A stretch of 64,000 nucleotides of DNA from contig JAKALT010000001.1 of assembly GCA_021813125.1 (NCBI GenBank), forward strand, positions 64,023 to 128,022, written 5' to 3'. A program made the translations under genes and the position numbers. Origin of the DNA: a bacterium (GTDB lineage: Bacteria > Patescibacteriota > Microgenomatia > Curtissbacterales > GWA2-41-24). The notes under the pieces are model-generated. The model was not told where the DNA came from. It ran no database searches and saw only the letters and a program-made list of their open reading frames with translations. Below are positions 5,797 to 31,626 of this stretch, piece after piece. Position 1 is the stretch's first letter. The number at the start of each line of letters is the position of its first letter.

Positions 5797-5825
5797 TTTA
5801 GTTTCGAAAAAGGAGGCTACTGCAT

Positions 5826-6488
5826 ATGAAATCTAGGATATTTTCCGGGTTTTATAAAATACTTTCGCTTTTTTCCCGTTTCCCAAAAAAGAACAAAGAG
5901 CGCTTTGTCTATGTGGCAATAGGTGATTCGTCCGTTGAAGGGGTCGGAGCTAGTCATCACACCAAATCATATCCTTCACTCATTTTTGAAAAAATAAAAT
6001 TAACTTACCCTAAAGGTGAATATCACAATCTGGGCAAAAGCGGCGACAGGATAGAGCATGTCGTTAAAAAACAGCTGCCGCAAGTTTTGGAGCTTAAACC
6101 AAACCTGGTAACAGTCAGCATCGGCGTGAACGACATCCGGGGCCGCGTAAAACTTTCCGATTTTGAAAAAGACCTTATGTATCTTGTAAGCACACTTCAA
6201 AACAAAACGGATGCCAAAATTATAATCAATAACATTCCCGATTTCTCCGCATTACCCACGTTGCCGATTTACATCCGGATCGCATCAAAGATTCTCATTC
6301 ACCGTTTCAACAGGTCAATTGAAAAAATATCCGACAACCTCAACATTACTTTGGTTGATATCTTTAAAGTTAGTAGGTATTTCTGCAAACAATGGAAAAA
6401 ATTCATTTCAAATGACGGTTTACACCCGTCCGATGCCGGCTACGCCCTCTGGGCGGAAACAATAATAGCTAACCTGACGTTCTTGTAA
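5826..6488 (+). CDS. SGNH/GDSL-family hydrolase
   Basis: 'AIGDSS' GDS(L) block I and C-terminal 'DGLHP' (DxxH) catalytic block; strong AAGGAGG RBS. Confidence 0.75.
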   Translation: MKSRIFSGFYKILSLFSRFPKKNKERFVYVAIGDSSVEGVGASHHTKSYPSLIFEKIKLTYPKGEYHNLGKSGDRIEHVVKKQLPQVLELKPNLVTVSIGVNDIRGRVKLSDFEKDLMYLVSTLQNKTDAKIIINNIPDFSALPTLPIYIRIASKILIHRFNRSIEKISDNLNITLVDIFKVSRYFCKQWKKFISNDGLHPSDAGYALWAETIIANLTFL

Positions 6489-7896
6489 GGAGTTGGGAAA
6501 GCCTTTTTGTTAAATAGTCTCTGGTATTTTTTGCCTTATCGTCCGCCACTTCTTCGAAAAGTTTTGAAAGGATCTCGCCGACTTTTGGTCCGGGTTTAAG
6601 ATCAAGAATTTTCATCACATCATTTCCATCAATAGCAAGATCGGCAACTGTGAACGGTTTTTTCAAAACTTCTTTGAGACGGGACCTAAAAAGTTTTAGT
6701 CTCCAAGACTCGGGCTGTTGAAGTCCGCCACCCAAACGATCGCCAATTCTAAGATCCATCATATCCTCAACATTTTCTAAACCGATATTTTTGATAAAAC
6801 GCCTAAGTGCCCTATCCGTTTGGTTTTCATTTACCGAAAACTGGTGCCAGCGCACCAAGCGAAATAGTTTGTCGCGCTCATCCCTCGAAAGGTGAAAACG
6901 CTCGGCAATTGCTACCGCCTGCCTTGCCCCAACTACCTCATGATTATGGAATGTCCGTACCCCTTCTTCTGTGACTTTGGCAACTTTCGCTTTGCCGATA
7001 TCATGAAGCATTGTGGCAAAGCGGGTAATTGTGTCTTTGGATGGGCAAGCATCAAGTGACATCACACAATGTGTTCCGACATCGTAAATATGGTGGCGTT
7101 TAGGGCTTTTCTGCTCGACGGCAAAACAAACCTCAAGTTCCGGTAAGATTACGGTTAATACGCTTAATTTTTTAGCCAAAAATATTCCGGAAGATGGAGT
7201 CGGGGAATCCACAATTTTAAAAACTTCATCGCGGATCCGCTCTCCGGAAATTTTGGAAATTAAACTCGCATTATCCTCAATTGCTTTGGCTGTCGCAGGG
7301 TCAATATCAAACCCCAGAGTTGTCGCAAACCTTATTGCCCGGAGCATCCTTAGTGCGTCCTCCCCAAACCGCTCGTTGGCATCACCAACAGTTTTTATAA
7401 GTTTATTTTTCAGGTCATCCTGTCCACCAAAAGGGTCAACCAAGTCCCAGTTACCAAGCTCAAGGCCAGGCCTTTGTCCAGAACCTTCTTCGTTAAGGCC
7501 TGGCCTTTCCCCACGTCTCAACGCCATGGCATTTATCGTAAAATCGCGGCGGGCTAAATCTTCCTGTAGCGTTTTTCCCCATTTGACTGTGTCCGGATGA
7601 CGAGTATCCGAGTAACCCTCCTCGGACCGATAAGTTGTGATCTCAACTATGTTCTCATCTTTGGTCTCTGGCTCCTGGCCACTGGAAACTGGCACCCCTA
7701 CTGTTCCAAACCTGTTATTATAAAATCCGTCAGGAAAAATCTTTAAAATTTCTTCCGGTTCTGCATTTGTTGTTAAATCCCAATCACCGACTTTGTTGCC
7801 CGACAAAATATCTCTTACCGCACCGCCGACAACTGCAGCTTCAAAACCCGCTTTTTCTAATTTTTCTAAAATATCAATAATCTTTTTGTCGACCAT
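6469..7896 (-). CDS. cca: CCA-adding tRNA nucleotidyltransferase with HD domain, carrying an in-frame repeat insertion
   Basis: 'GGAVRD...GDWDLTT' PolyA_pol head; 'RRDFTINAMA', 'DPFGG', 'ERFGEDALRMLRAIRF', 'HDIGK' HD motif; about 20 extra residues between NAMA and DPFGG. Confidence 0.85.
   Translation of the reverse strand: MVDKKIIDILEKLEKAGFEAAVVGGAVRDILSGNKVGDWDLTTNAEPEEILKIFPDGFYNNRFGTVGVPVSSGQEPETKDENIVEITTYRSEEGYSDTRHPDTVKWGKTLQEDLARRDFTINAMALRRGERPGLNEEGSGQRPGLELGNWDLVDPFGGQDDLKNKLIKTVGDANERFGEDALRMLRAIRFATTLGFDIDPATAKAIEDNASLISKISGERIRDEVFKIVDSPTPSSGIFLAKKLSVLTVILPELEVCFAVEQKSPKRHHIYDVGTHCVMSLDACPSKDTITRFATMLHDIGKAKVAKVTEEGVRTFHNHEVVGARQAVAIAERFHLSRDERDKLFRLVRWHQFSVNENQTDRALRRFIKNIGLENVEDMMDLRIGDRLGGGLQQPESWRLKLFRSRLKEVLKKPFTVADLAIDGNDVMKILDLKPGPKVGEILSKLFEEVADDKAKNTRDYLTKRLSQLLTRTSG
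7462..7509. repeat. Palindromic hairpin repeat copy (AAGGCCAGGCCTT-N19-AAGGCCTGGCCTT) embedded in-frame in cca
   Basis: Perfect 13-bp inverted repeat; encodes 'GERPGLNEEGSGQRPGLELG' in the cca reading frame. Confidence 0.7.
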
Positions 7897-26558: not shown

Positions 26559-27731
26559 ATGTCCAATATTAGAGAACGCATAGAACATCGCAGATTTTTA
26601 AACAGGCAAACGCTTCTAAGCGGAGCAATAGCAACAGGTATCAGTATTACGGCTGGGGCAAAAATTGAAAACAATATTCACCACGAAGCAATTTCAGCAA
26701 AAGTACCGGTGACGCGAGGAGTAGATCCTAATCATGAAGCCTACATGGCAACTGCAACCTTAACACCAGAGCCCACCGAAACGCCGGAATTAACTTCAAC
26801 CCCGACAGCACTTTCAACATCAACACCGGAATCATCCGCAACGGAAGAGTCAACGGAAACATCAACCGCAACAAGTACGCCGGTCTCAACACCATTCCCT
26901 GAATTTCCGGGCTGCGAAGACCAAACCGAGCCTGGTGATATTGCTCATTACGACACAGGCCTACATTGGATAGTTGGTGACGGGTTGCAGGAAGGAAGAG
27001 ATGACGTTTACAGTCTCGAAGACGGTGATGTCCTGCAGTGTTTTTGCCCGCCCCAAGATGAATTTGTAGAAGGGGACGAAGGTATCCAAACAAACTGGAT
27101 AAAGACCGATGAGGGCGATAAAGAAAAAATGCCGCCAGAAGTATTCGGTTTTTTCAGAGTTTGGGGTCCGGATTTTGGCCTGCAACAAAGGTGGTATTAC
27201 GCATCCGGTGCCGATAAACCTTCCCCAACAACGCCCAACTTTGACTGCAACCCTGAAGCCCCAACAGCGACCGCAACAGATACTGCTACTCCAACAGACA
27301 CACCTCAACCTACGGATACACCAATGCCTACAGACACTCCAACCGCAACGGACACGCCCCAGCCAACCGATACTCCCGAGCCAACGGACACCCCAACAAA
27401 TGTTCCTGAAACTGCAACACCCGTCTCTCACAAAGTAAAATCGGCAACCCCTACCAGAACAAAAACCAGTGTGCCACCAACAAAAACTCCAAAGCCCAAA
27501 CCGACTGAGGTTAAGATTCCTATGAATGTAGAAACTCCCCAGTCCAAACCTCCGATCGAAAAGGGTTTTCCAAATACCGGCAATCCTGACAATAAAAAAA
27601 CCAATTTAATCTATGCAGCTATGGCAGCAGTATCCGGACTTTCCCTAACAGGGGCCGGATTAAAATTTGGAAGAGGAAGATCACAAGATACACGAACCAG
27701 AATAGCAGCAGCCCTGGCAAGAAGAAAATAA
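26559..27731 (+). CDS. Surface protein with Tat-type signal peptide, Thr-Pro-Asp-rich repeats and a C-terminal LPXTG-like (FPNTG) sortase sorting signal
   Basis: 'HRRFLNRQ' twin-arginine motif plus hydrophobic region; 'TDTPQPTDTPMPTDTP...' repeats; 'FPNTG' + hydrophobic stretch + 'RGRSQDTRTRIAAALARRK' basic tail. Confidence 0.5.
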   Translation: MSNIRERIEHRRFLNRQTLLSGAIATGISITAGAKIENNIHHEAISAKVPVTRGVDPNHEAYMATATLTPEPTETPELTSTPTALSTSTPESSATEESTETSTATSTPVSTPFPEFPGCEDQTEPGDIAHYDTGLHWIVGDGLQEGRDDVYSLEDGDVLQCFCPPQDEFVEGDEGIQTNWIKTDEGDKEKMPPEVFGFFRVWGPDFGLQQRWYYASGADKPSPTTPNFDCNPEAPTATATDTATPTDTPQPTDTPMPTDTPTATDTPQPTDTPEPTDTPTNVPETATPVSHKVKSATPTRTKTSVPPTKTPKPKPTEVKIPMNVETPQSKPPIEKGFPNTGNPDNKKTNLIYAAMAAVSGLSLTGAGLKFGRGRSQDTRTRIAAALARRK

Positions 27732-27795
27732 GCCAACCTTACACCTCCGTTTAGTCTATATAGTTGTCTGCATAAAACTATATAATGTAATTAGT

Positions 27796-28179
27796 ATGAA
27801 AGGCTTCGTCGGGAACATCGAAGAAAAAACAGTTGAAAATACCTATTTTAGGCAAGTAGTCTATACCGGTCAGCATGCTCAATTGGTATTGATGTCACTT
27901 GAACCGAACGAAGAAATTGGTATGGAAGTTCATGACGTTACAGACCAGTTTCTAAGAATCGAACAAGGCGAAGGCAAGGTTATCATGGATGGGGAAGAGA
28001 GGGAAGTTAAAAATGGCGATGCAGTAATTGTTCCTGCTGGTACCCAACACAACGTAATGAACACCTCCTCCGAAAATCGGCTAAAGATTTATACAATCTA
28101 CTCGCCGCCGCATCACAAAGACGGAACTGTCCACAAAACTAAAGCAGATGCCCAAAAGGATTCAGCAGACCACCTTTAA
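27796..28179 (+). CDS. Cupin-domain protein
   Basis: Two-His cupin motif pattern ('HDVTDQF...', 'VIVPAGTQHNVMN'); about 127 aa. Confidence 0.6.
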   Translation: MKGFVGNIEEKTVENTYFRQVVYTGQHAQLVLMSLEPNEEIGMEVHDVTDQFLRIEQGEGKVIMDGEEREVKNGDAVIVPAGTQHNVMNTSSENRLKIYTIYSPPHHKDGTVHKTKADAQKDSADHL

Positions 28180-28304
28180 CGCCGCTTTATTTGACAGCCC
28201 ACATCAACTTATTAGTAACTATTCAGGATTTTCATTACACCAAAAAGGGTGATAAAATTAGCTTCGCATTGCGGCAAGTCAAACTTGTATGCAATGTACG
28301 ACGT

Positions 28305-28375
28305 TGCGGGATCGTCTAATGGTAGGACGACGGATTCTGGATCCGTCTATCTAGGTTCGAATCCTAGTCCCGCAG
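28305..28375 (+). tRNA. tRNA-Gln (anticodon CUG)
   Basis: Cloverleaf: acceptor TGCGGGA/TCCCGCA (U1:A72 as in bacterial tRNA-Gln), anticodon stem-loop ACGGA-TTCTGGA-TCCGT, T-arm CTAGG-TTCGAAT-CCTAG, discriminator G; CCA not encoded. Confidence 0.8.
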
Positions 28376-28532
28376 CAAAGTTAACTTTTCAAGAAATTGG
28401 TAAAAAATGAAGCTAATAGGTTCCAGAATATATTTATTCCCCTGTAGTTTTAGCCTTGCAGCGGAATTGGAGTAGAACCCAAACTAATAAATAGTTTATT
28501 ACGATTTGAAAATAACACATTTTAGGCGTCTC

Positions 28533-28571
28533 TTGACATAGTACATAGTACACTGTATACTATGTACTATG
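28533..28571 (+). promoter_or_regulatory. Consensus promoter (TTGACA-N17-TATACT) overlapping a perfect 14-bp inverted repeat operator (CATAGTACATAGTA-N7-TACTATGTACTATG)
   Basis: -35 at 28533-28538, -10 at 28556-28561, IR arms 28537-28550 and 28558-28571; ATG at 28573, so an essentially leaderless transcript. Confidence 0.55.
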
Positions 28572-28572
28572 T

Positions 28573-29580
28573 ATGAAGACTGATACTGCTGAAAAAATTA
28601 TTGGATATATTGCAATCAACAAACAGGCTCGTGCGCATGATATTGGAAGAATATTTAATATTGGCCAGCCTGCTGTTCATAGACAGCTAAAAAAGCTTGT
28701 AGAACAAGGCACACTTCAAAAAGTAGGCAAACCCCCACTTGTTTTTTACATACTGGCTCCAAAAAACCAAACTGAAAATATTTTGGGTAAGGCATCTATT
28801 TTGGGCAGAAATACAGTTGATTACATAGATAAAAATTATTTGTACATTACTCCTCAGGGAGAATTGCTCTATGGGCTTGAAGGATTTAAGCAGTGGGCTA
28901 AATCTATAAAAGAAGAATCACGCCTTGTGCCTCTGTCGGAAGAATACGTAAAAATGCACACTCAGGCAGAAGTAAGCAGATCTTCCGAAGGATGGATTGA
29001 TGCAACGCATAAAATCAAAACTACTTTTTTTGAAAATGCTATAACAAAACTATTTTATGGTGATTTTTACAGTATTCCAAAATTTGGAAAAACAAAGTTG
29101 GGTAATTTAGTTTTGTATTCTAAACAATCTCAAAACAGAGAACTTATTGATAAAGCAGTGGAGGAAGTAAAACCAATTATTGATCAAATAATTGCAATGT
29201 ATAACATTGACACTATTGCCTTTGCCCCTCCAAGCTTACCTCGGAAACTGCAATTCATGCAGGAATTTGCTGATAGGCTTAATATAAATCTACCTAAAAT
29301 TCACTTGGTAAAGTTATACAAGGGAAATATTATTGTTGCTCAAAAATCACTCGCTGGCCTTGAAGAAAGAATAACGAATGCTAGGGATACAATTTATCTG
29401 AAGTCGCAGGTTCCCATAAACGCCCGAAATATCCTGTTAATTGATGACGCGGTAGGATCTGGAGCAACTTTAAATGAGATTGCAAAGAAGCTTCAAGCCA
29501 GCAATACTAATAAAAAAACAATTATCGGGTTTGCAATTGTTGGAAGTGTAAAAGGATTTGAAGTTATCAGAGAAATCTAA
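28573..29580 (+). CDS. ComF-family phosphoribosyltransferase-domain protein with N-terminal winged-helix DNA-binding domain
   Basis: N-terminal wHTH ('HDIGRIFNIGQPAVHRQLKKLVEQG'); C-terminal PRTase motif 'ILLIDDAVGSGATL' with ComF-like upstream blocks ('IDTIAFAPPS', 'RxxQF'). Confidence 0.55.
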   Translation: MKTDTAEKIIGYIAINKQARAHDIGRIFNIGQPAVHRQLKKLVEQGTLQKVGKPPLVFYILAPKNQTENILGKASILGRNTVDYIDKNYLYITPQGELLYGLEGFKQWAKSIKEESRLVPLSEEYVKMHTQAEVSRSSEGWIDATHKIKTTFFENAITKLFYGDFYSIPKFGKTKLGNLVLYSKQSQNRELIDKAVEEVKPIIDQIIAMYNIDTIAFAPPSLPRKLQFMQEFADRLNINLPKIHLVKLYKGNIIVAQKSLAGLEERITNARDTIYLKSQVPINARNILLIDDAVGSGATLNEIAKKLQASNTNKKTIIGFAIVGSVKGFEVIREI

Positions 29581-29677
29581 ACACTACAATATTTTAAAGA
29601 TATTCAATCCGTATTGTAATTTTTTATGGAAACCTTCTTTTAAGAAAAAGTCGGATAAATGAATTTTTTTAAAAAAA

Positions 29678-29848
29678 CTACTTGGCATTTATATCTTCCC
29701 TTTCTGGTAAGATTATGGAGTCAGAAGTCTTATCACAGATAAAGCCAAGTTTCCTGAGTTTTTCATAAGTGTTGAGGAGACTGGGTTCAATGAGGTTCCA
29801 CCTGCGGGCAACTGTGTCAGCAAGGTTAAATAGTATGTTTACTAAAAA
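29678..29848 (-). pseudogene. Start-less C-terminal remnant resembling a DDE transposase (IS4/IS5-like 'RWxIE...YEKL' region)
   Basis: Open frame '...FNLADTVARRWNLIEPSLLNTYEKLRKLGFICDK...' has no Met or RBS and is truncated against the next gene; similarity to IS transposase C-termini is from motif recall only. Confidence 0.3.
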
Positions 29849-30253
29849 ATGAACATATTGGAAACAATTATTATTACGGTATCAAGTGGTTTAATTGGTG
29901 GTTTTATTAGTTATTATTTCACTGAAAAAACTGAAAATTATAAATTTGAATTACTTAAAAAGGAACAGGCAGTAAAAGTCGCCGAATTGTTTGCGTTTTG
30001 GCTAACATGCGACGATGAGACTTTAGCAAAGTTTACTGAAAAAGAAAGAAAGGATCATTGCGAAAAATTAAACAGACTTACTTGGGAATTGGTAATTTGG
30101 ATTCCCGATGAAGATTTGGTAAAAGATATAATGGATAAACTTAGCCATAGCTCAAGAAAAGACATTAAAGAAATAATATTAAACATTAGGAAGCAGATTC
30201 AGAAGAAAAAGGACAGTAAATTAAAGTGGCAAGATTTAGTAAGTTTTAAATAA
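29849..30253 (+). CDS. Hypothetical protein with N-terminal TM helix
   Basis: 134-aa ORF; TM segment 'ILETIIITVSSGLIGGFISYYF'; Lys/Glu-rich soluble domain. Confidence 0.4.
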   Translation: MNILETIIITVSSGLIGGFISYYFTEKTENYKFELLKKEQAVKVAELFAFWLTCDDETLAKFTEKERKDHCEKLNRLTWELVIWIPDEDLVKDIMDKLSHSSRKDIKEIILNIRKQIQKKKDSKLKWQDLVSFK

Positions 30254-30323
30254 GGAGTACTACAAAGCCTAAATAGGTCTTGACCAACATGCTCAGCAAG
30301 CACGTGCATTTGAGCTAAACTTT

Positions 30324-30986
30324 ATGGACAGTATTGATTACTCCGAACTGAAAGAATTATTTGTAAAATATAAATACAAATTTTCAAATCAATTTTCTCT
30401 TTTGGAAAAAGATCTTTCCGATGAGCTTTTTAATAAGCTAGTCGATCTGGATGATATCAGTCAAGAAATTATAGAGATTGTAGATGAGCTACTCCCTAAA
30501 AATAGAATTGTTCCTGGAAAAAATGGGACAGATATTGTAAATATTGGACCATTCTCACTAACTCTTAAGAGGGCTGATCCGAATGTGCCAATCCAACTCG
30601 ATAATTCGACTGTGGGCTATTCGCGTACCAAAGGAAGTGCATTCTCTACTAAGGAATCAAGGAAAAAAGAGAGAAGGCTTGAAAGGTTATCTTTTGAATT
30701 CTACCGGACAGCAGACAGAATATCTCATATAACTGAAAAATTACCAGGTTTAAAATCATTTAAATGTAATAAGACTAGAATAATAAGAAACCACTTGCTT
30801 GAGCATCCTGAGAGCAAAGATAGTGGAATTACCTATGACTCCTTTGCATACAGTATAAGTGAGGGGCCGTATATTAAAGGTTCAAGGGTAGGAGAACATA
30901 CTCATTTTATGGATGACGGATTCAGAATCAATAGCTTGGATTTTATATCTAATTTAACGAAAACGATTCAAAAAACCCTGGTTTGA
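30324..30986 (+). CDS. Hypothetical protein
   Basis: 220-aa ORF, no recognisable motif. Confidence 0.4.
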   Translation: MDSIDYSELKELFVKYKYKFSNQFSLLEKDLSDELFNKLVDLDDISQEIIEIVDELLPKNRIVPGKNGTDIVNIGPFSLTLKRADPNVPIQLDNSTVGYSRTKGSAFSTKESRKKERRLERLSFEFYRTADRISHITEKLPGLKSFKCNKTRIIRNHLLEHPESKDSGITYDSFAYSISEGPYIKGSRVGEHTHFMDDGFRINSLDFISNLTKTIQKTLV

Positions 30987-31044
30987 CTAAAAGGGTGCAA
31001 CGGATCCATGCTGGTACGCTTAGCAAAGGTATAAACCTCCTAAT

Positions 31045-31626
31045 TTATACGTAACTCAACAAGTGAGCCAGCTTGTCCTTTTTAGTTCTTAAATAGCTCC
31101 TGTTGACTTCATTTGGAACAACTTCTATTCTCATTCTTTTTACAATTTCTATACCATTTTTAATCAGCTGGTTTTCTTTGTCTGGGTTGTTTGTTAACAA
31201 ATAAATTTTTGTTATTTGTAAATCGCGCAGTATTTCGGCAGCGACTTGATAATCTCGCGCATCAACGGGAAGCCCCAAAAGTTCGTTTGCTTCTATAGTG
31301 TCAAAGCCTTTTTCTTGCAAAGCATAAGCTTTAATTTTGTTAGTGAGGCCGATGCCTCTGCCTTCCTGGTTTAAATAAAGAATAACCCCGCTTCCATTTT
31401 TTTGAATTTCTTCCATACTTTGGGCCAATTGCTCTCCGCAATCGCACTTTAGGGAAGAAAATATGTCGCCGGTTACACAAGAAGAGTGAATTCTGGCAAG
31501 CATTGGATTCTGCACTTGGCCTCTGACAAGCGCAACATGCTCAAGTCCTTTTGAGGATTTATAAACACTCATTCGAAACACTCCGAATTTTGTTGGCAAA
31601 TTAGCACTTGCTGTTTTTCTTATCAT
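31045..31626 (-). CDS. ribA: GTP cyclohydrolase II
   Basis: 'RIHSSCVTGDIFSSLKCDCGEQL' zinc-binding motif; 'NQEGRGIGL'. Confidence 0.85.
   Translation of the reverse strand: MIRKTASANLPTKFGVFRMSVYKSSKGLEHVALVRGQVQNPMLARIHSSCVTGDIFSSLKCDCGEQLAQSMEEIQKNGSGVILYLNQEGRGIGLTNKIKAYALQEKGFDTIEANELLGLPVDARDYQVAAEILRDLQITKIYLLTNNPDKENQLIKNGIEIVKRMRIEVVPNEVNRSYLRTKKDKLAHLLSYV

What the first reader, a model, noticed from the sequence alone, without database searches (positions are those of the whole stretch)
28533..29580. wHTH-ComF/PRTase fusion gene under a consensus promoter overlapped by a perfect 14-bp palindrome; leaderless
The protein joins an N-terminal winged-helix DNA-binding domain to a ComF-type phosphoribosyltransferase domain ('ILLIDDAVGSGATL'). 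Canonical ComFC has an N-terminal zinc finger instead. Directly upstream, TTGACA-N17-TATACT overlaps CATAGTACATAGTA-N7-TACTATGTACTATG, itself built from tandem CATAGTA heptamers. The ATG is only about 5 nt after the predicted start site. This looks like a tight autoregulatory operator, presumably bound by the gene's own wHTH, on a competence-type protein, immediately after a tRNA gene.
Basis: partly seen in the sequence, partly recalled or inferred. Interest (0 to 1): 0.55.

Follow-up and report, generated by a model that had tools for sequence, protein, structure and literature searches.

The report
Self-repressed wHTH–PRTase gene with conserved operator
This is a real, stand-alone gene for a DNA-binding domain fused to a PRPP-binding enzyme domain; it sits under a palindromic operator that hundreds of ultra-small (CPR) and some other bacteria keep at the same place, so it almost certainly switches itself off, and its nearest relatives are anti-phage/toxin enzymes rather than the DNA-uptake protein ComFC.

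Summary
ORF 28573-29580 (335 aa) sits under TTGACA-N17-TATACT. A 37-bp palindrome (18-nt arms, one mismatch) overlaps that promoter and ends 1 nt before the ATG.

The protein has a winged helix (residues 1-62), a linker, a 'hood' domain (79-152) and a type-I PRTase domain (153-335) with an intact PRPP loop.

It belongs to a large unnamed family: 302 clusters at 50% identity, and relatives in at least 487 species genomes, mostly Patescibacteria. In 73 of 81 loci the same operator lies on the gene's own promoter. The operator is five AYWRT pentamers spaced every 7 bp. In 33 loci its last ATG is the start codon, and the −10 to ATG distance is most often 7 nt, which implies a leaderless mRNA. So autoregulation is strongly supported.

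The 'competence protein' reading is not supported. The protein has no Cys and so no zinc finger, and it scores 25 bits against a ComF cut-off of 233. Its best profile match is the C-terminal half of the PsyrT/RqlH toxin (61 of 62 members), followed by ShosT and retron III-A PRTases. No partner gene is conserved next to it, and it is usually lower in GC than its flanks.

Best reading: a self-repressed, single-gene PRPP-using effector or sensor. Its biochemical output is unknown. I rate it a new variant of a known kind.

The parts
28533..28538 (+). -35 hexamer TTGACA. Its last 3 nt are already inside the palindrome.
   Evidence: 11/12 promoter. T-T-G-a-c precedes the operator in most relatives (logo positions -4..0).
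28536..28572 (.). 37-bp palindromic operator (18-nt arms, one mismatched pair). The core 33-mer, 28538-28570, is five pentamers every 7 bp: ATAGT, ATAGT, ACTGT, ACTAT, ACTAT.
   Evidence: The same 33-mer pattern scores >=22/28 upstream of 73 of 81 family genes, while random windows reach at most 20, except one window (27) that overlaps a second operator site. 29 of 38 operator-like sites in metagenomes abut a family gene.
28556..28561 (+). -10 hexamer TATACT, inside the right half of the palindrome.
   Evidence: 60 of 73 relatives have a >=9/12 promoter placed the same way.
28569..28571 (+). Out-of-frame ATG at the palindrome's end. This is where most relatives have their start codon. Here it would give only M-Y-E-D-stop.
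   Evidence: in 33 loci the palindrome's last ATG is the start codon. The window and L001 carry 4 extra nt.
28573..28758 (+). Winged helix-turn-helix, residues 1-62. Recognition helix is 32-44 (AVHRQLKKL); wing is GKPPLVFY with P55 and Y59 invariant.
28759..28806 (+). Variable linker predicted to be disordered, residues 63-78.
   Evidence: pLDDT <50 for 64-75. The alignment has gaps and variation here.
28807..29028 (+). Middle 'hood' domain, residues 79-152 (IDxNYLYISPxGExLxGxxGFxxW). No family assignment.
   Evidence: G96, G101, F105, W108 nearly invariant. Covered by the PsyrT profile match.
29029..29577 (+). Type-I PRTase domain of the ComF/PsyrT/ShosT clade, residues 153-335. Invariant residues: K184, R224, Q257, K258, R266, N269, D291.
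29428..29472 (+). PRPP-binding loop NILLIDDAVGSGATL, residues 286-300.
   Evidence: Aligns in pattern with H. pylori ComFC 157-DDIITTGTTL-166 (PMC9005727).
28305..28376 (+). tRNA-Gln(CTG). This is context only, at the edge of the low-GC stretch 28400-31000.

Best explanation
The locus is a self-contained, self-repressing single-gene module.

**Regulatory half (well supported).** The protein's N-terminal winged helix binds a 33-37 bp operator made of five AYWRT pentamers spaced 7 bp apart. The operator covers the gene's own promoter from -35 to +1, so accumulated protein blocks RNA polymerase (autorepression). The transcript starts at or within about 4 nt of the ATG, so it is leaderless or nearly so.

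**Output half (inferred).** The C-terminal domain is a PRPP-binding type-I PRTase of the ComF/PsyrT/ShosT/retron-III-A clade (Pfam 'PRTase-CE', conflict effector). Its residues are conserved in the way an enzyme's are. I therefore take it to be the output of the module: a PRPP-consuming or nucleotide/DNA-directed phosphoribosyl-transfer activity like that of its toxin and defence relatives, kept at a low set-point by autorepression. PRPP or nucleotide binding may also feed back on DNA binding, as it does in PurR.

**What is shown:** the architecture, the fold, the conservation of the operator and its position, and the lack of a partner gene.

**What is inferred:** that the gene's own wHTH is the binder, that binding represses, and that the PRTase is catalytically active.

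**What is unknown:** the substrate and the trigger.

The confidence of 0.45 refers to the whole statement including the enzymatic-output part; for the autoregulatory operator alone I would give about 0.8.
For: - **Architecture.** The AF2 model has pLDDT 86.4 and shows a wHTH, a disordered linker, a hood and a PRTase.
- **Operator.** It is present on the gene's own promoter in 73 of 81 loci from many Patescibacteria classes plus MAGs labelled Bdellovibrionota and Omnitrophota. The null maximum score is 20, against >=22 observed.
- **Reverse test.** 21 of 25 metagenomic sites with 4/4 ATAGT-type pentamers, and 8 of 13 with 3/4, abut a family gene.
- **Promoter overlap in two arrangements.** Either -35 is fused to the left arm, or TTGACA sits in the palindrome's centre. 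In both cases the start codon falls about 7 nt after the -10 hexamer: 38 of 60 loci have 5-8 nt, mode 7.
- **Co-variation.** Recognition-helix residue 36 co-varies with the heptad's variable dinucleotide: Phe goes with TG/TC, His with the others (odds ratio 32, p = 1.6e-7, not corrected for phylogeny).
- **PRTase clade.** The PsyrT model matches residues 6-323 to profile positions 367-682 of 689 (E = 5e-17) and hits 61 of 62 members. ShosT hits 47 of 62, retron PRTase_III-A 54 of 62, comF 57 of 62, HGPRTase only 6 of 62.
- **Conservation.** 7 of the 9 invariant columns lie in the PRTase domain, including the flexible-loop motif QK..L....R..NA and D291 of the PRPP loop.
- **Relatives act through PRPP.** ShosT needs PRPP binding for toxicity (PMC12961424, PMC11961720). 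RqlH toxicity needs the PRPP pocket (PMC4670107). [quoted passage not shown]
- **Solitary accessory gene.** No neighbour is conserved. The gene is lower in GC than its flanks in 89% of 65 loci, and it lies in the lowest-GC 2.6 kb of this window.
Against: - There is no experimental datum for any member of the family.
- The antitoxin-type partner of the known toxins (DprA-like PsyrA/RqlI/ShosA) is absent next to the gene, and no trigger can be proposed.
- Immediate neighbours are mostly housekeeping or envelope genes. Only about 7% are TA or defence genes, and no relative was found in IMG/VR viral contigs. So a 'defence island' context is weak.
- A conserved PRPP pocket is equally expected for a pure ligand sensor, as in PurR.
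- A few operator-like sites lie next to other genes. That fits a transcription factor with a small regulon.
- The co-variation may reflect phylogeny.
- The match to PsyrT is profile-level only; I could not obtain a PsyrT sequence to check the N-terminal half residue by residue.
Confidence: 0.45

Rival explanations
1. PurR-like sensor-regulator. The protein is primarily a transcription factor. The PRTase-like domain no longer catalyses anything and only senses PRPP or nucleotides, which tune binding of the wHTH to the operator. Besides its own promoter it controls a small regulon elsewhere in the genome, possibly envelope-glycan genes.
For: - It has the same domain order as B. subtilis PurR (N-terminal winged helix, C-terminal PRT domain). 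PRPP lowers PurR's operator affinity, as summarised in PMC9005727.
- The operator covers the promoter.
- Extra operator-like sites lie away from the family gene: L011 4036-4068, which has its own TTGAC; L065; and 9 orphan sites (3-4 of 4 ATAGT-type pentamers) in metagenomes. Three of these are next to RGP-like, GDP-mannose dehydratase and Wzy_C genes, and one (L083) is followed directly by an unrelated ORF.
- Patescibacteria depend on salvage, so a PRPP or nucleotide sensor would make sense (general knowledge).
Against: - There is no PuR_N or PurR match in Pfam, NCBIfam or the Foldseek top 50.
- The only strong site in the 64-kb window is the gene's own. Only 2 extra sites were found in about 0.66 Mb of flanks.
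- No regulated neighbour is conserved.
- The PRTase residues are conserved more strictly than the wHTH, including the flexible-loop motif shared with ComF and the toxins.
- The patchy distribution and low GC fit an accessory gene better than a core regulator.
Confidence: 0.3
2. Variant ComFC. This would be the DNA-uptake protein of these organisms, with a winged helix replacing the zinc finger. It would handle incoming DNA together with ComEC and DprA.
For: - The top Foldseek PDB hit is H. pylori ComF.
- comF TIGR00201 is the commonest NCBIfam hit (57 of 62).
- The weak tblastn hits are to annotated ComF genes.
- The motifs PPSxPR...QF and QK.L....R..NA..TIF...LLIDDA.GSGAT parallel ComF motifs (sequence; my recollection of the ComF consensus).
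Against: - No Cys, so no 4-Cys finger, which PMC9005727 reports as highly conserved and required for ComFC function.
- 25 bits against a 233-bit cut-off.
- The PsyrT and ShosT models score far better.
- No competence genes are adjacent in 80 loci.
- A sequence-specific operator on its own promoter is not a ComFC feature.
- The family is present in only a subset of genomes, and with low GC.
Confidence: 0.08
3. The palindrome is not an operator of this protein. It would be a chance AT-rich repeat, a cruciform or hairpin element, a terminator of the upstream gene, or the site of some other factor.
For: - It is a near-perfect 37-bp palindrome with almost no spacer and could extrude as a cruciform.
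- Unrelated tandem heptamer arrays with similar pentamers exist in metagenomes.
- No binding experiment exists.
Against: - It has been kept at the same position relative to -35, -10 and the ATG across very different upstream genes and phyla, whereas null windows never reach its score.
- It is largely upstream of the predicted transcription start, so it is not an RNA structure.
- There is no T-run (0 terminators).
- It has a reciprocal association with the family gene.
- It co-varies with the recognition helix.
Confidence: 0.04

Closest known systems
PsyrT / RqlH (RecQ-like helicase-PRTase toxin of the PsyrTA/RqlHI system)
   Same: The whole 335-aa protein aligns co-linearly with the C-terminal half of the PADLOC PsyrT model: residues 6-323 to profile positions 367-682 of 689, E = 5e-17, with 61 of 62 family members matching. 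The PRPP-pocket aspartates that RqlH needs for genotoxicity have equivalents here (D291, D292). RqlH also often occurs without its partner (PMC4670107).
   Different: There is no helicase half and no adjacent DprA-like PsyrA/RqlI. It has its own promoter-operator. The homology of the N-terminal half rests on one profile alignment that I could not inspect.
ShosT (ShosTA) and retron type III-A PRTase effectors (e.g. Retron-Eco11)
   Same: Same PRTase clade: ShosT E = 6e-10 over residues 152-322, PRTase_III-A E = 5e-7, and ShosT 8zvc among the Foldseek hits. Retron III-A effectors also combine a PRTase with a winged-helix DNA-binding domain, fused in subtypes A3-A5 (PMC7736814, PMC12746101). Their PRPP motif is essential.
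   Different: ShosT has an N-terminal pyrophosphatase domain and a ShosA partner. Retron effectors have the winged helix at the C-terminus and need an RT and ncRNA. None of these was seen here, and no neighbour family is shared by more than 8 of 80 loci. The retron motif Gx14PNNxP was not looked for.
ComFC / ComF family (TIGR00201, COG1040)
   Same: The PRT fold is the best PDB match (7p0h), comF is the commonest NCBIfam hit, and the flexible-loop and PRPP-loop motifs are similar.
   Different: There is no 4-Cys zinc finger, the score is far below the family cut-off, there is no competence context, and the protein has a wHTH and a 75-residue hood instead.
Bacillus subtilis PurR (and PyrR): PRT domains co-opted for gene regulation
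   Same: N-terminal winged helix plus C-terminal PRT domain in one chain, and the operator lies on its own promoter. PRPP as the effector is the natural analogy. PyrR structures are among the Foldseek hits.
   Different: No sequence or profile match to PuR_N/PurR. The PRT domain belongs to a different clade. The operator is unrelated to the PurBox (from memory). No purine genes are nearby.
wHTH autoregulators of conflict systems (AbiEi, BrxR, Csa3/CasR)
   Same: A winged helix binds inverted repeats over its own promoter. The wHTH gives weak hits to Csa3 (31 of 62), CasR and AbiEi models.
   Different: Those are separate regulator or antitoxin proteins. Here the wHTH is fused to the putative effector itself.

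Membership tests
ComFC / ComF family | N-terminal 4-Cys zinc finger (C3, C6, C15, C18 in H. pylori; highly conserved and required for function, PMC9005727) | tested here: not met
   The window protein has 0 Cys. 58 of 62 diverse members have no Cys in the first 80 residues.
ComFC / ComF family | Score at or above the curated cut-off of TIGR00201 (233.55 bits) or GntX NF008616 (304 bits) | tested here: not met
   25.2 and 20 bits, local match to residues 255-311 only. The best family member reaches E = 2e-11.
ComFC / ComF family | Type-I PRT core with PRPP loop, PPi loop and flexible loop | tested here: met
   Foldseek top hit is 7p0h_A. The loop NILLIDDAVGSGATL is present, and R224, Q257, K258, R266, N269 are invariant.
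ComFC / ComF family | Competence context or function (comFA/comEC/dprA; role in transformation) | tested here: inconclusive
   No conserved neighbour in 80 loci. Whole genomes were not available, and function cannot be tested here.
PsyrT / RqlH | C-terminal PRTase region homologous to the family model | tested here: met
   PDLC03928 E = 4.7e-17, residues 6-323 to profile positions 367-682 of 689. 61 of 62 members match, best E = 1e-18.
PsyrT / RqlH | N-terminal RecQ-like helicase domain | tested here: not met
   The protein is 335 aa and starts with the wHTH. Profile positions 1-366 are unmatched. All of the top 150 cluster representatives are about 330 aa or shorter fragments.
PsyrT / RqlH | Downstream DprA-like partner (PsyrA/RqlI) | tested here: not met
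   No neighbour family is shared by more than 8 of 80 loci, and none is DprA-like among the top families. Note that RqlH itself often lacks RqlI (PMC4670107).
ShosT (ShosTA) | N-terminal HAD-type pyrophosphatase domain plus PRTase, with a ShosA partner | tested here: not met
   Only the PRTase part matches (residues 152-322). The N-terminus is a wHTH. There is no partner.
Retron type III-A effector | Adjacent retron RT and ncRNA; PRTase N-terminal to the winged helix | tested here: not met
   Domain order is reversed. No conserved neighbour. No Rfam match other than tRNA in 27500-31200.
Pfam PRTase-CE (PF24390) | Score at or above the gathering threshold (27 bits) | tested here: inconclusive
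   The window protein scores 23.5 bits (E = 6e-5), below the cut-off. 22 of 62 members hit at E <= 1e-3, and many relatives carry a precomputed PF24390 hit.
PurR (B. subtilis type) | PuR_N winged helix (PF09182) plus PRT domain; PRPP-modulated binding to a PurBox | tested here: not met
   No PuR_N or PurR hit in Pfam or NCBIfam. The ligand effect cannot be tested here.
Winged-helix DNA-binding domains (MarR/ArsR/HTH_24-like) | α1-α2-α3-β-β fold with a recognition helix and a wing | tested here: met
   Helices 5-16, 21-27 and 32-44, strands 48-53 and 56-61, pLDDT 85-89. HTH_24 hits 31 of 62 members, best E = 3e-9. BFVD HTH matches reach rmsd 1-3 Å. The profile hits AdcR and Z-alpha at E about 2e-3.

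The most novel reading that the evidence does not exclude
This is a one-protein immune or stress module in which the protein's own operator DNA acts both as the transcriptional brake and as the 'leash' of a toxic PRTase. The winged helices of an oligomer sit on the five-heptad palindrome. Heptads 1+4 and 2+5 are 21 bp apart, which is two helical turns, so each pair faces the same side of the DNA. This would be analogous to retron msDNA holding the type III-A PRTase-wHTH effector. Loss or distortion of that DNA contact (phage nucleases or helicases, supercoiling change, cruciform extrusion) would at once derepress the gene and free the enzyme to drain PRPP or to phosphoribosylate nucleobases or DNA. 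That would amount to a fused regulator-sensor-effector needing no antitoxin, spread by horizontal transfer among ultra-small and predatory bacteria.
Probability: 0.12. Interest if true: 0.8.

Novelty: new variant of a known kind. Interest (0 to 1): 0.5.

Why it matters
- **An unstudied family gets a concrete prediction.** The family is large (302 clusters at 50% identity, relatives in at least 487 species genomes) and concentrated in Patescibacteria, where very few regulators or operators are known. The comparative data here give a ready-made, precisely delimited promoter-operator-start-codon unit and its predicted binder.
- **It is directly testable.** The tests are EMSA, a reporter assay, and the effect of PRPP on binding.
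- **It extends a recurring pairing.** PRTase plus winged helix is already seen in the defence-associated PRTase clade (PsyrT/RqlH, ShosT, retron III-A). This would be a stand-alone, self-regulated form of it. That could help answer the open question of what ComF-type PRTase domains actually do with PRPP.
- **The operator geometry is unusual.** Five pentamers at 7-bp spacing, with the start codon inside the palindrome, is an uncommon arrangement worth structural study.

Tried and rejected
- **PsyrT/RqlH sequence:** I could not obtain one for a residue-level check. tblastn of the protein against plasmids gave only weak ComF and DeoR-HTH hits. The paper that defines PRTase-CE (Nicastro et al., NAR 2023) is not held, and 'PRTase-CE' occurs in no held paper.
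- **Viral contigs:** no relative found.
- **Conserved partner gene:** all-against-all clustering of 1,624 ORFs from the 80 loci, plus Pfam and PADLOC scans of 114 immediate neighbours, found none. The window's two downstream ORFs have no homologue in any other fetched locus.
- **Metagenome scan with the degenerate operator:** most hits were unrelated ACAGTnn/ACTGTnn tandem heptamer arrays (I recall similar cyanobacterial STRR repeats), next to no common gene. These were set aside by requiring ATAGT-type pentamers.
- **RNA element:** rejected. Rfam finds only the tRNA, and the palindrome lies upstream of the predicted transcription start.
- **Terminator:** rejected.
- **Transposon ends:** rejected. 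There is a single copy, only on the 5' side, in a fixed register with the promoter.
- **Z-DNA binding:** the wHTH resembles Z-alpha domains in a profile search. I rejected this as a working idea because the Tyr177 equivalent is Lys and most operators (the ATAGTTT type) do not alternate purine and pyrimidine.
- **comEC/comEA/dprA:** not checked genome-wide, because only 64 kb is available.
Full report
**1. The observation**

ORF 28573-29580 (+) encodes 335 aa.

TTGACA (28533-28538), a 17-nt spacer and TATACT (28556-28561) form an 11/12 σ70-type promoter, the best in 27700-30400.

CATAGTACATAGTA (28537-28550) and its reverse complement (28558-28571) are the only perfect copies in the 64-kb window. 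The palindrome is longer than reported: the arms are 28536-28553 and 28555-28572, 18 nt each, 94% complementary, 1 nt apart.

Read in heptads it is ATAGTAC ATAGTAC ACTGTAT ACTATGT ACTAT (28538-28570).

It ends 1 nt before the ATG. The ATG is 11 nt after the -10 hexamer, so a leader of a few nucleotides is expected.

tRNA-Gln(CTG) lies at 28305-28376, 196 nt before the ATG.

**2. The protein**

An AlphaFold2 model built on 36 homologues has mean pLDDT 86.4. It shows:
- a canonical winged helix (helices 5-16, 21-27, 32-44; strands 48-53, 56-61);
- a disordered linker (64-75);
- a helix/hairpin domain (79-152);
- a Rossmann-like PRTase core (153-325).

The wHTH is backed by sub-threshold MarR_2, HTH_5, TrmB and HTH_24 hits for the window protein. 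Relatives reach E down to 3e-9. It also superposes at 1-3 Å on viral HTH proteins.

For the C-terminal domain the top Foldseek PDB hit is H. pylori ComF (7p0h), followed by HGPRTs, PyrR and ShosT 8zvc.

The PRPP loop NILLIDDAVGSGATL is intact. Across 62 members sharing 30-52% identity the invariant residues are P55 and Y59 (wing), K184, R224, Q257, K258, R266, N269 and D291. Seven of the nine are therefore in the PRTase domain, including the flexible-loop motif QK..L....R..NA that ComF-type proteins also carry.

**3. The family**

The word-indexed search gave 2,621 relatives, nearly all full length at about 330 aa. The few source names are generic, for example 'winged helix-turn-helix transcriptional regulator [Candidatus Roizmanbacteria]'.

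The exhaustive profile search found 302 clusters (50% identity) at E <= 1e-30 and 1,518 at E <= 1e-3. The top 150 all have this architecture or are fragments of it.

The titles are mostly Patescibacteria (Roizman-, Collier-, Gottesman-, Shapiro-, Woese-, Levy-, Moran-, Magasanik-, Peregrini-, Gracili- and Dojkabacteria). Some MAGs are labelled Bdellovibrionota or Omnitrophota, and others carry uninformative labels.

**4. The palindrome is the family's operator**

I located the start codon in 80 loci and scored a 33-mer pattern (ATAGTWNAYAGTWNACNGTNWACTRTNWACTAT; 28 informative positions) in the 130 nt upstream.
- 73 of 81 loci (80 plus the window) score >=22.
- 1,464 random 130-nt windows from the same loci score <=20, except one that turned out to be a second site.

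The logo shows five pentamers AYWRT at exact 7-bp spacing. A is invariant at positions 1, 8, 15, 22 and 29, and T is invariant at positions 5, 12, 19, 26 and 33.

The position is fixed relative to the promoter, in two arrangements:
- (i) TTGAC is fused to the left arm, the -10 lies inside the right arm, and the palindrome's terminal ATG serves as the start codon. The site starts at -31 in 33 loci. The window and L001 have 4 extra nt.
- (ii) TTGACA sits in the centre of the palindrome and the -10 immediately follows it.

60 of 73 loci have a >=9/12 promoter, and in 38 of those the -10 hexamer ends 5-8 nt (mode 7) before the start codon. This implies leaderless mRNAs. Only 2 of 81 have an SD-like 4-mer, but SD-like motifs are rare in these genomes anyway (13 of 61 ORFs in the window).

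The reverse test also holds. A metagenome scan for the degenerate pattern gave sites that abut a family gene in 21 of 25 cases when all four outer pentamers are ATAGT-type, and in 8 of 13 when three are. The many ACAGT-only hits are unrelated tandem heptamer arrays.

Within a site the variable dinucleotide of the heptad usually agrees among the heptads. It also tracks recognition-helix residue 36: Phe with TG/TC, His otherwise (odds ratio 32, p = 1.6e-7, uncorrected for phylogeny).

Because the upstream genes differ from locus to locus, the element belongs to this gene. Because it spans -35 to +1, binding should repress. That the binder is the gene's own wHTH is an inference, but the reciprocal association and the co-variation make it the economical one.

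**5. What kind of PRTase**

| Model | Result |
|---|---|
| PADLOC PsyrT | E = 4.7e-17; residues 6-323 to profile 367-682 of 689; 61 of 62 members |
| PADLOC ShosT | E = 6e-10 over residues 152-322; 47 of 62 members |
| PADLOC retron PRTase_III-A | E = 5e-7; 54 of 62 members |
| Pfam PRTase-CE | 23.5 bits (cut-off 27); 22 of 62 members |
| NCBIfam comF TIGR00201 | 57 of 62 members (best 2e-11); window protein 25 bits vs cut-off 233 |
| NCBIfam HGPRTase | 6 of 62 members |

'CE' in PRTase-CE stands for conflict effector (PMC12871103).

So the domain belongs to the ComF/PsyrT/ShosT super-clade, not to salvage enzymes.

It is not a ComFC, however. It has no Cys at all, whereas the 4-Cys finger is required for ComFC function (PMC9005727).

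What is known of the relatives:
- RqlH/PsyrT toxicity maps to the PRTase domain and its PRPP pocket, and RqlH often occurs without RqlI (PMC4670107).
- ShosT needs PRPP binding and perturbs purine metabolism (PMC11961720, PMC12961424).
- Retron III-A effectors combine a PRTase with a winged helix, and Retron-Eco11 depletes PRPP when triggered (PMC7736814, PMC12746101).
- PurR and PyrR show that PRT domains can instead be pure sensors (PMC9005727).

**6. Context**

- No neighbour is conserved. The largest neighbour family occurs in 8 of 80 loci.
- The 114 immediate neighbours are a mixture of housekeeping genes (Sua5, SmpB, TrmD, EF-Tu), envelope-glycan genes (Wzy_C ×3, GT2 ×2, and others) and a few TA/defence genes (AbiEii ×2, Fic ×2, DUF4143 ×2, RmuC ×2).
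- No relative was found in IMG/VR viral contigs.
- The gene is lower in GC than its flanks in 89% of 65 loci (median -0.033).
- In the window, 28400-31000 (this gene plus two orphan ORFs) is the lowest-GC 2.6 kb of the 64 kb (0.338 against a median of 0.411).
- A tRNA or tmRNA gene lies within about 150 nt in 10 of 51 loci.

Together this points to an accessory, horizontally mobile single-gene cassette that travels with its own promoter-operator.

**7. Extra operator sites**

The window has no second site. In about 0.66 Mb of flanks there are two:
- L011 4036-4068, with its own TTGAC, about 180 nt before a split RGP-like gene;
- L065 7651-7683, between convergent genes.

Searches cover these. 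In the metagenome data, orphan sites lie next to a GDP-mannose dehydratase gene (L099), a Wzy_C gene (L124), and an unrelated ORF that starts 1 nt after the site (L083). These keep a small-regulon model alive.

**8. Mechanism and verdict**

- *Shown:* the domain architecture, the clade of the PRTase, the conserved operator over the promoter, the near-leaderless layout, and the solitary accessory context.
- *Inferred:* the wHTH binds the operator and represses; the PRTase domain binds PRPP.
- *Open:* whether the PRTase is the enzymatic output (my preference, 0.45, given enzyme-like conservation and toxin/defence relatives) or a PRPP/nucleotide sensor in a PurR-like regulator (0.3).

A geometric note (inference only): pentamers 1+4 and 2+5 are inverted pairs 21 bp apart, which is two helical turns. 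Two dimers on different faces would therefore fit the 7-bp register.

The finding is real and richer than reported, but it is a variant within a known clade and not a new kind of system. Interest is about 0.5.

Noticed in passing
window 28400-31000: This is the lowest-GC 2.6-kb stretch of the whole 64-kb window (0.338 against a median of 0.411; rank 1 of 307). It starts just after tRNA-Gln and holds the target gene plus two ORFs (29849-30253, 134 aa; 30324-30986, 220 aa). Those two ORFs have no Pfam family above the gathering cut-off and no homologue in any other fetched locus. It looks like a small acquired islet.
   Followed up: partly
window 28569-28571: An out-of-frame ATG (it would give M-Y-E-D-stop) sits exactly where most relatives have their start codon, at the last 3 nt of the palindrome. 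The window and its relative L001 have 4 extra nt, which moves the real ATG to 11 nt after the -10 hexamer. If transcription starts at 28569, a leaderless mini-ORF would compete with the gene.
   Followed up: partly
L011 4036-4068; L065 7651-7683; L083 798-830; L099 1570-1602; L124 3574-3606: Operator-like sites that are not on a family gene. In L011 the site has its own TTGAC and precedes a split RGP-like glycosyltransferase gene. L099 lies next to a GDP-mannose 4,6-dehydratase gene and L124 next to a Wzy_C gene. In L083 an unrelated ORF starts 1 nt after the site. L065 lies between a ParE/RHH pair and a convergent gene. This may be a small regulon, possibly of envelope glycan genes, or these may be relics.
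   Followed up: partly
L012, L014, L016, L029, L035, L043, L045, L057, L078 (around 5800-7350) and window 28305-28376: A tRNA or tmRNA gene lies within about 150 nt of the family gene in 10 of 51 loci. Several genes are sandwiched between tRNA-Arg(CCT), tRNA-Arg(CCG) and tRNA-Pro(CGG). By my rough estimate this is about ten times what chance would give. I have no explanation for it.
   Followed up: partly
window 28573-28758 (residues 1-62): In a profile search of PDB sequences the nearest matches of the wHTH include Z-alpha (Z-DNA-binding) domains (CyHV-3 ORF112, PKZ, ADAR1; E = 0.002-0.03). The wing GKPPLVFY resembles the Z-alpha GTPPLW, but the position of the key Tyr177 is Lys here.
   Followed up: partly
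window 26559-27731: A 390-aa Pro/Thr-rich repetitive protein (PTDTPxPTDTP repeats) with an N-terminal hydrophobic segment. Its C-terminal 'FPNTG' followed by a hydrophobic stretch and a basic tail resembles a sortase sorting signal. It has no Pfam hit.
   Followed up: no
L082-L200 (e.g. L109 8225-8257, L130 604-643, L151 1169-1201): The degenerate heptad pattern also picks up long tandem heptamer arrays of the type (ACAGTNN)n switching to (ACTGTNN)n, for example CAACAGT repeats. They are next to unrelated genes. They resemble cyanobacterial STRR repeats (from memory) and are unrelated to this family.
   Followed up: partly
window 29849-30250: The 134-aa ORF downstream gives weak, sub-threshold hits to two families from conflict-system surveys: YLATT (E = 0.004) and wHTH-Calcineurin_assc (E = 0.01). 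These are too weak to interpret.
   Followed up: no
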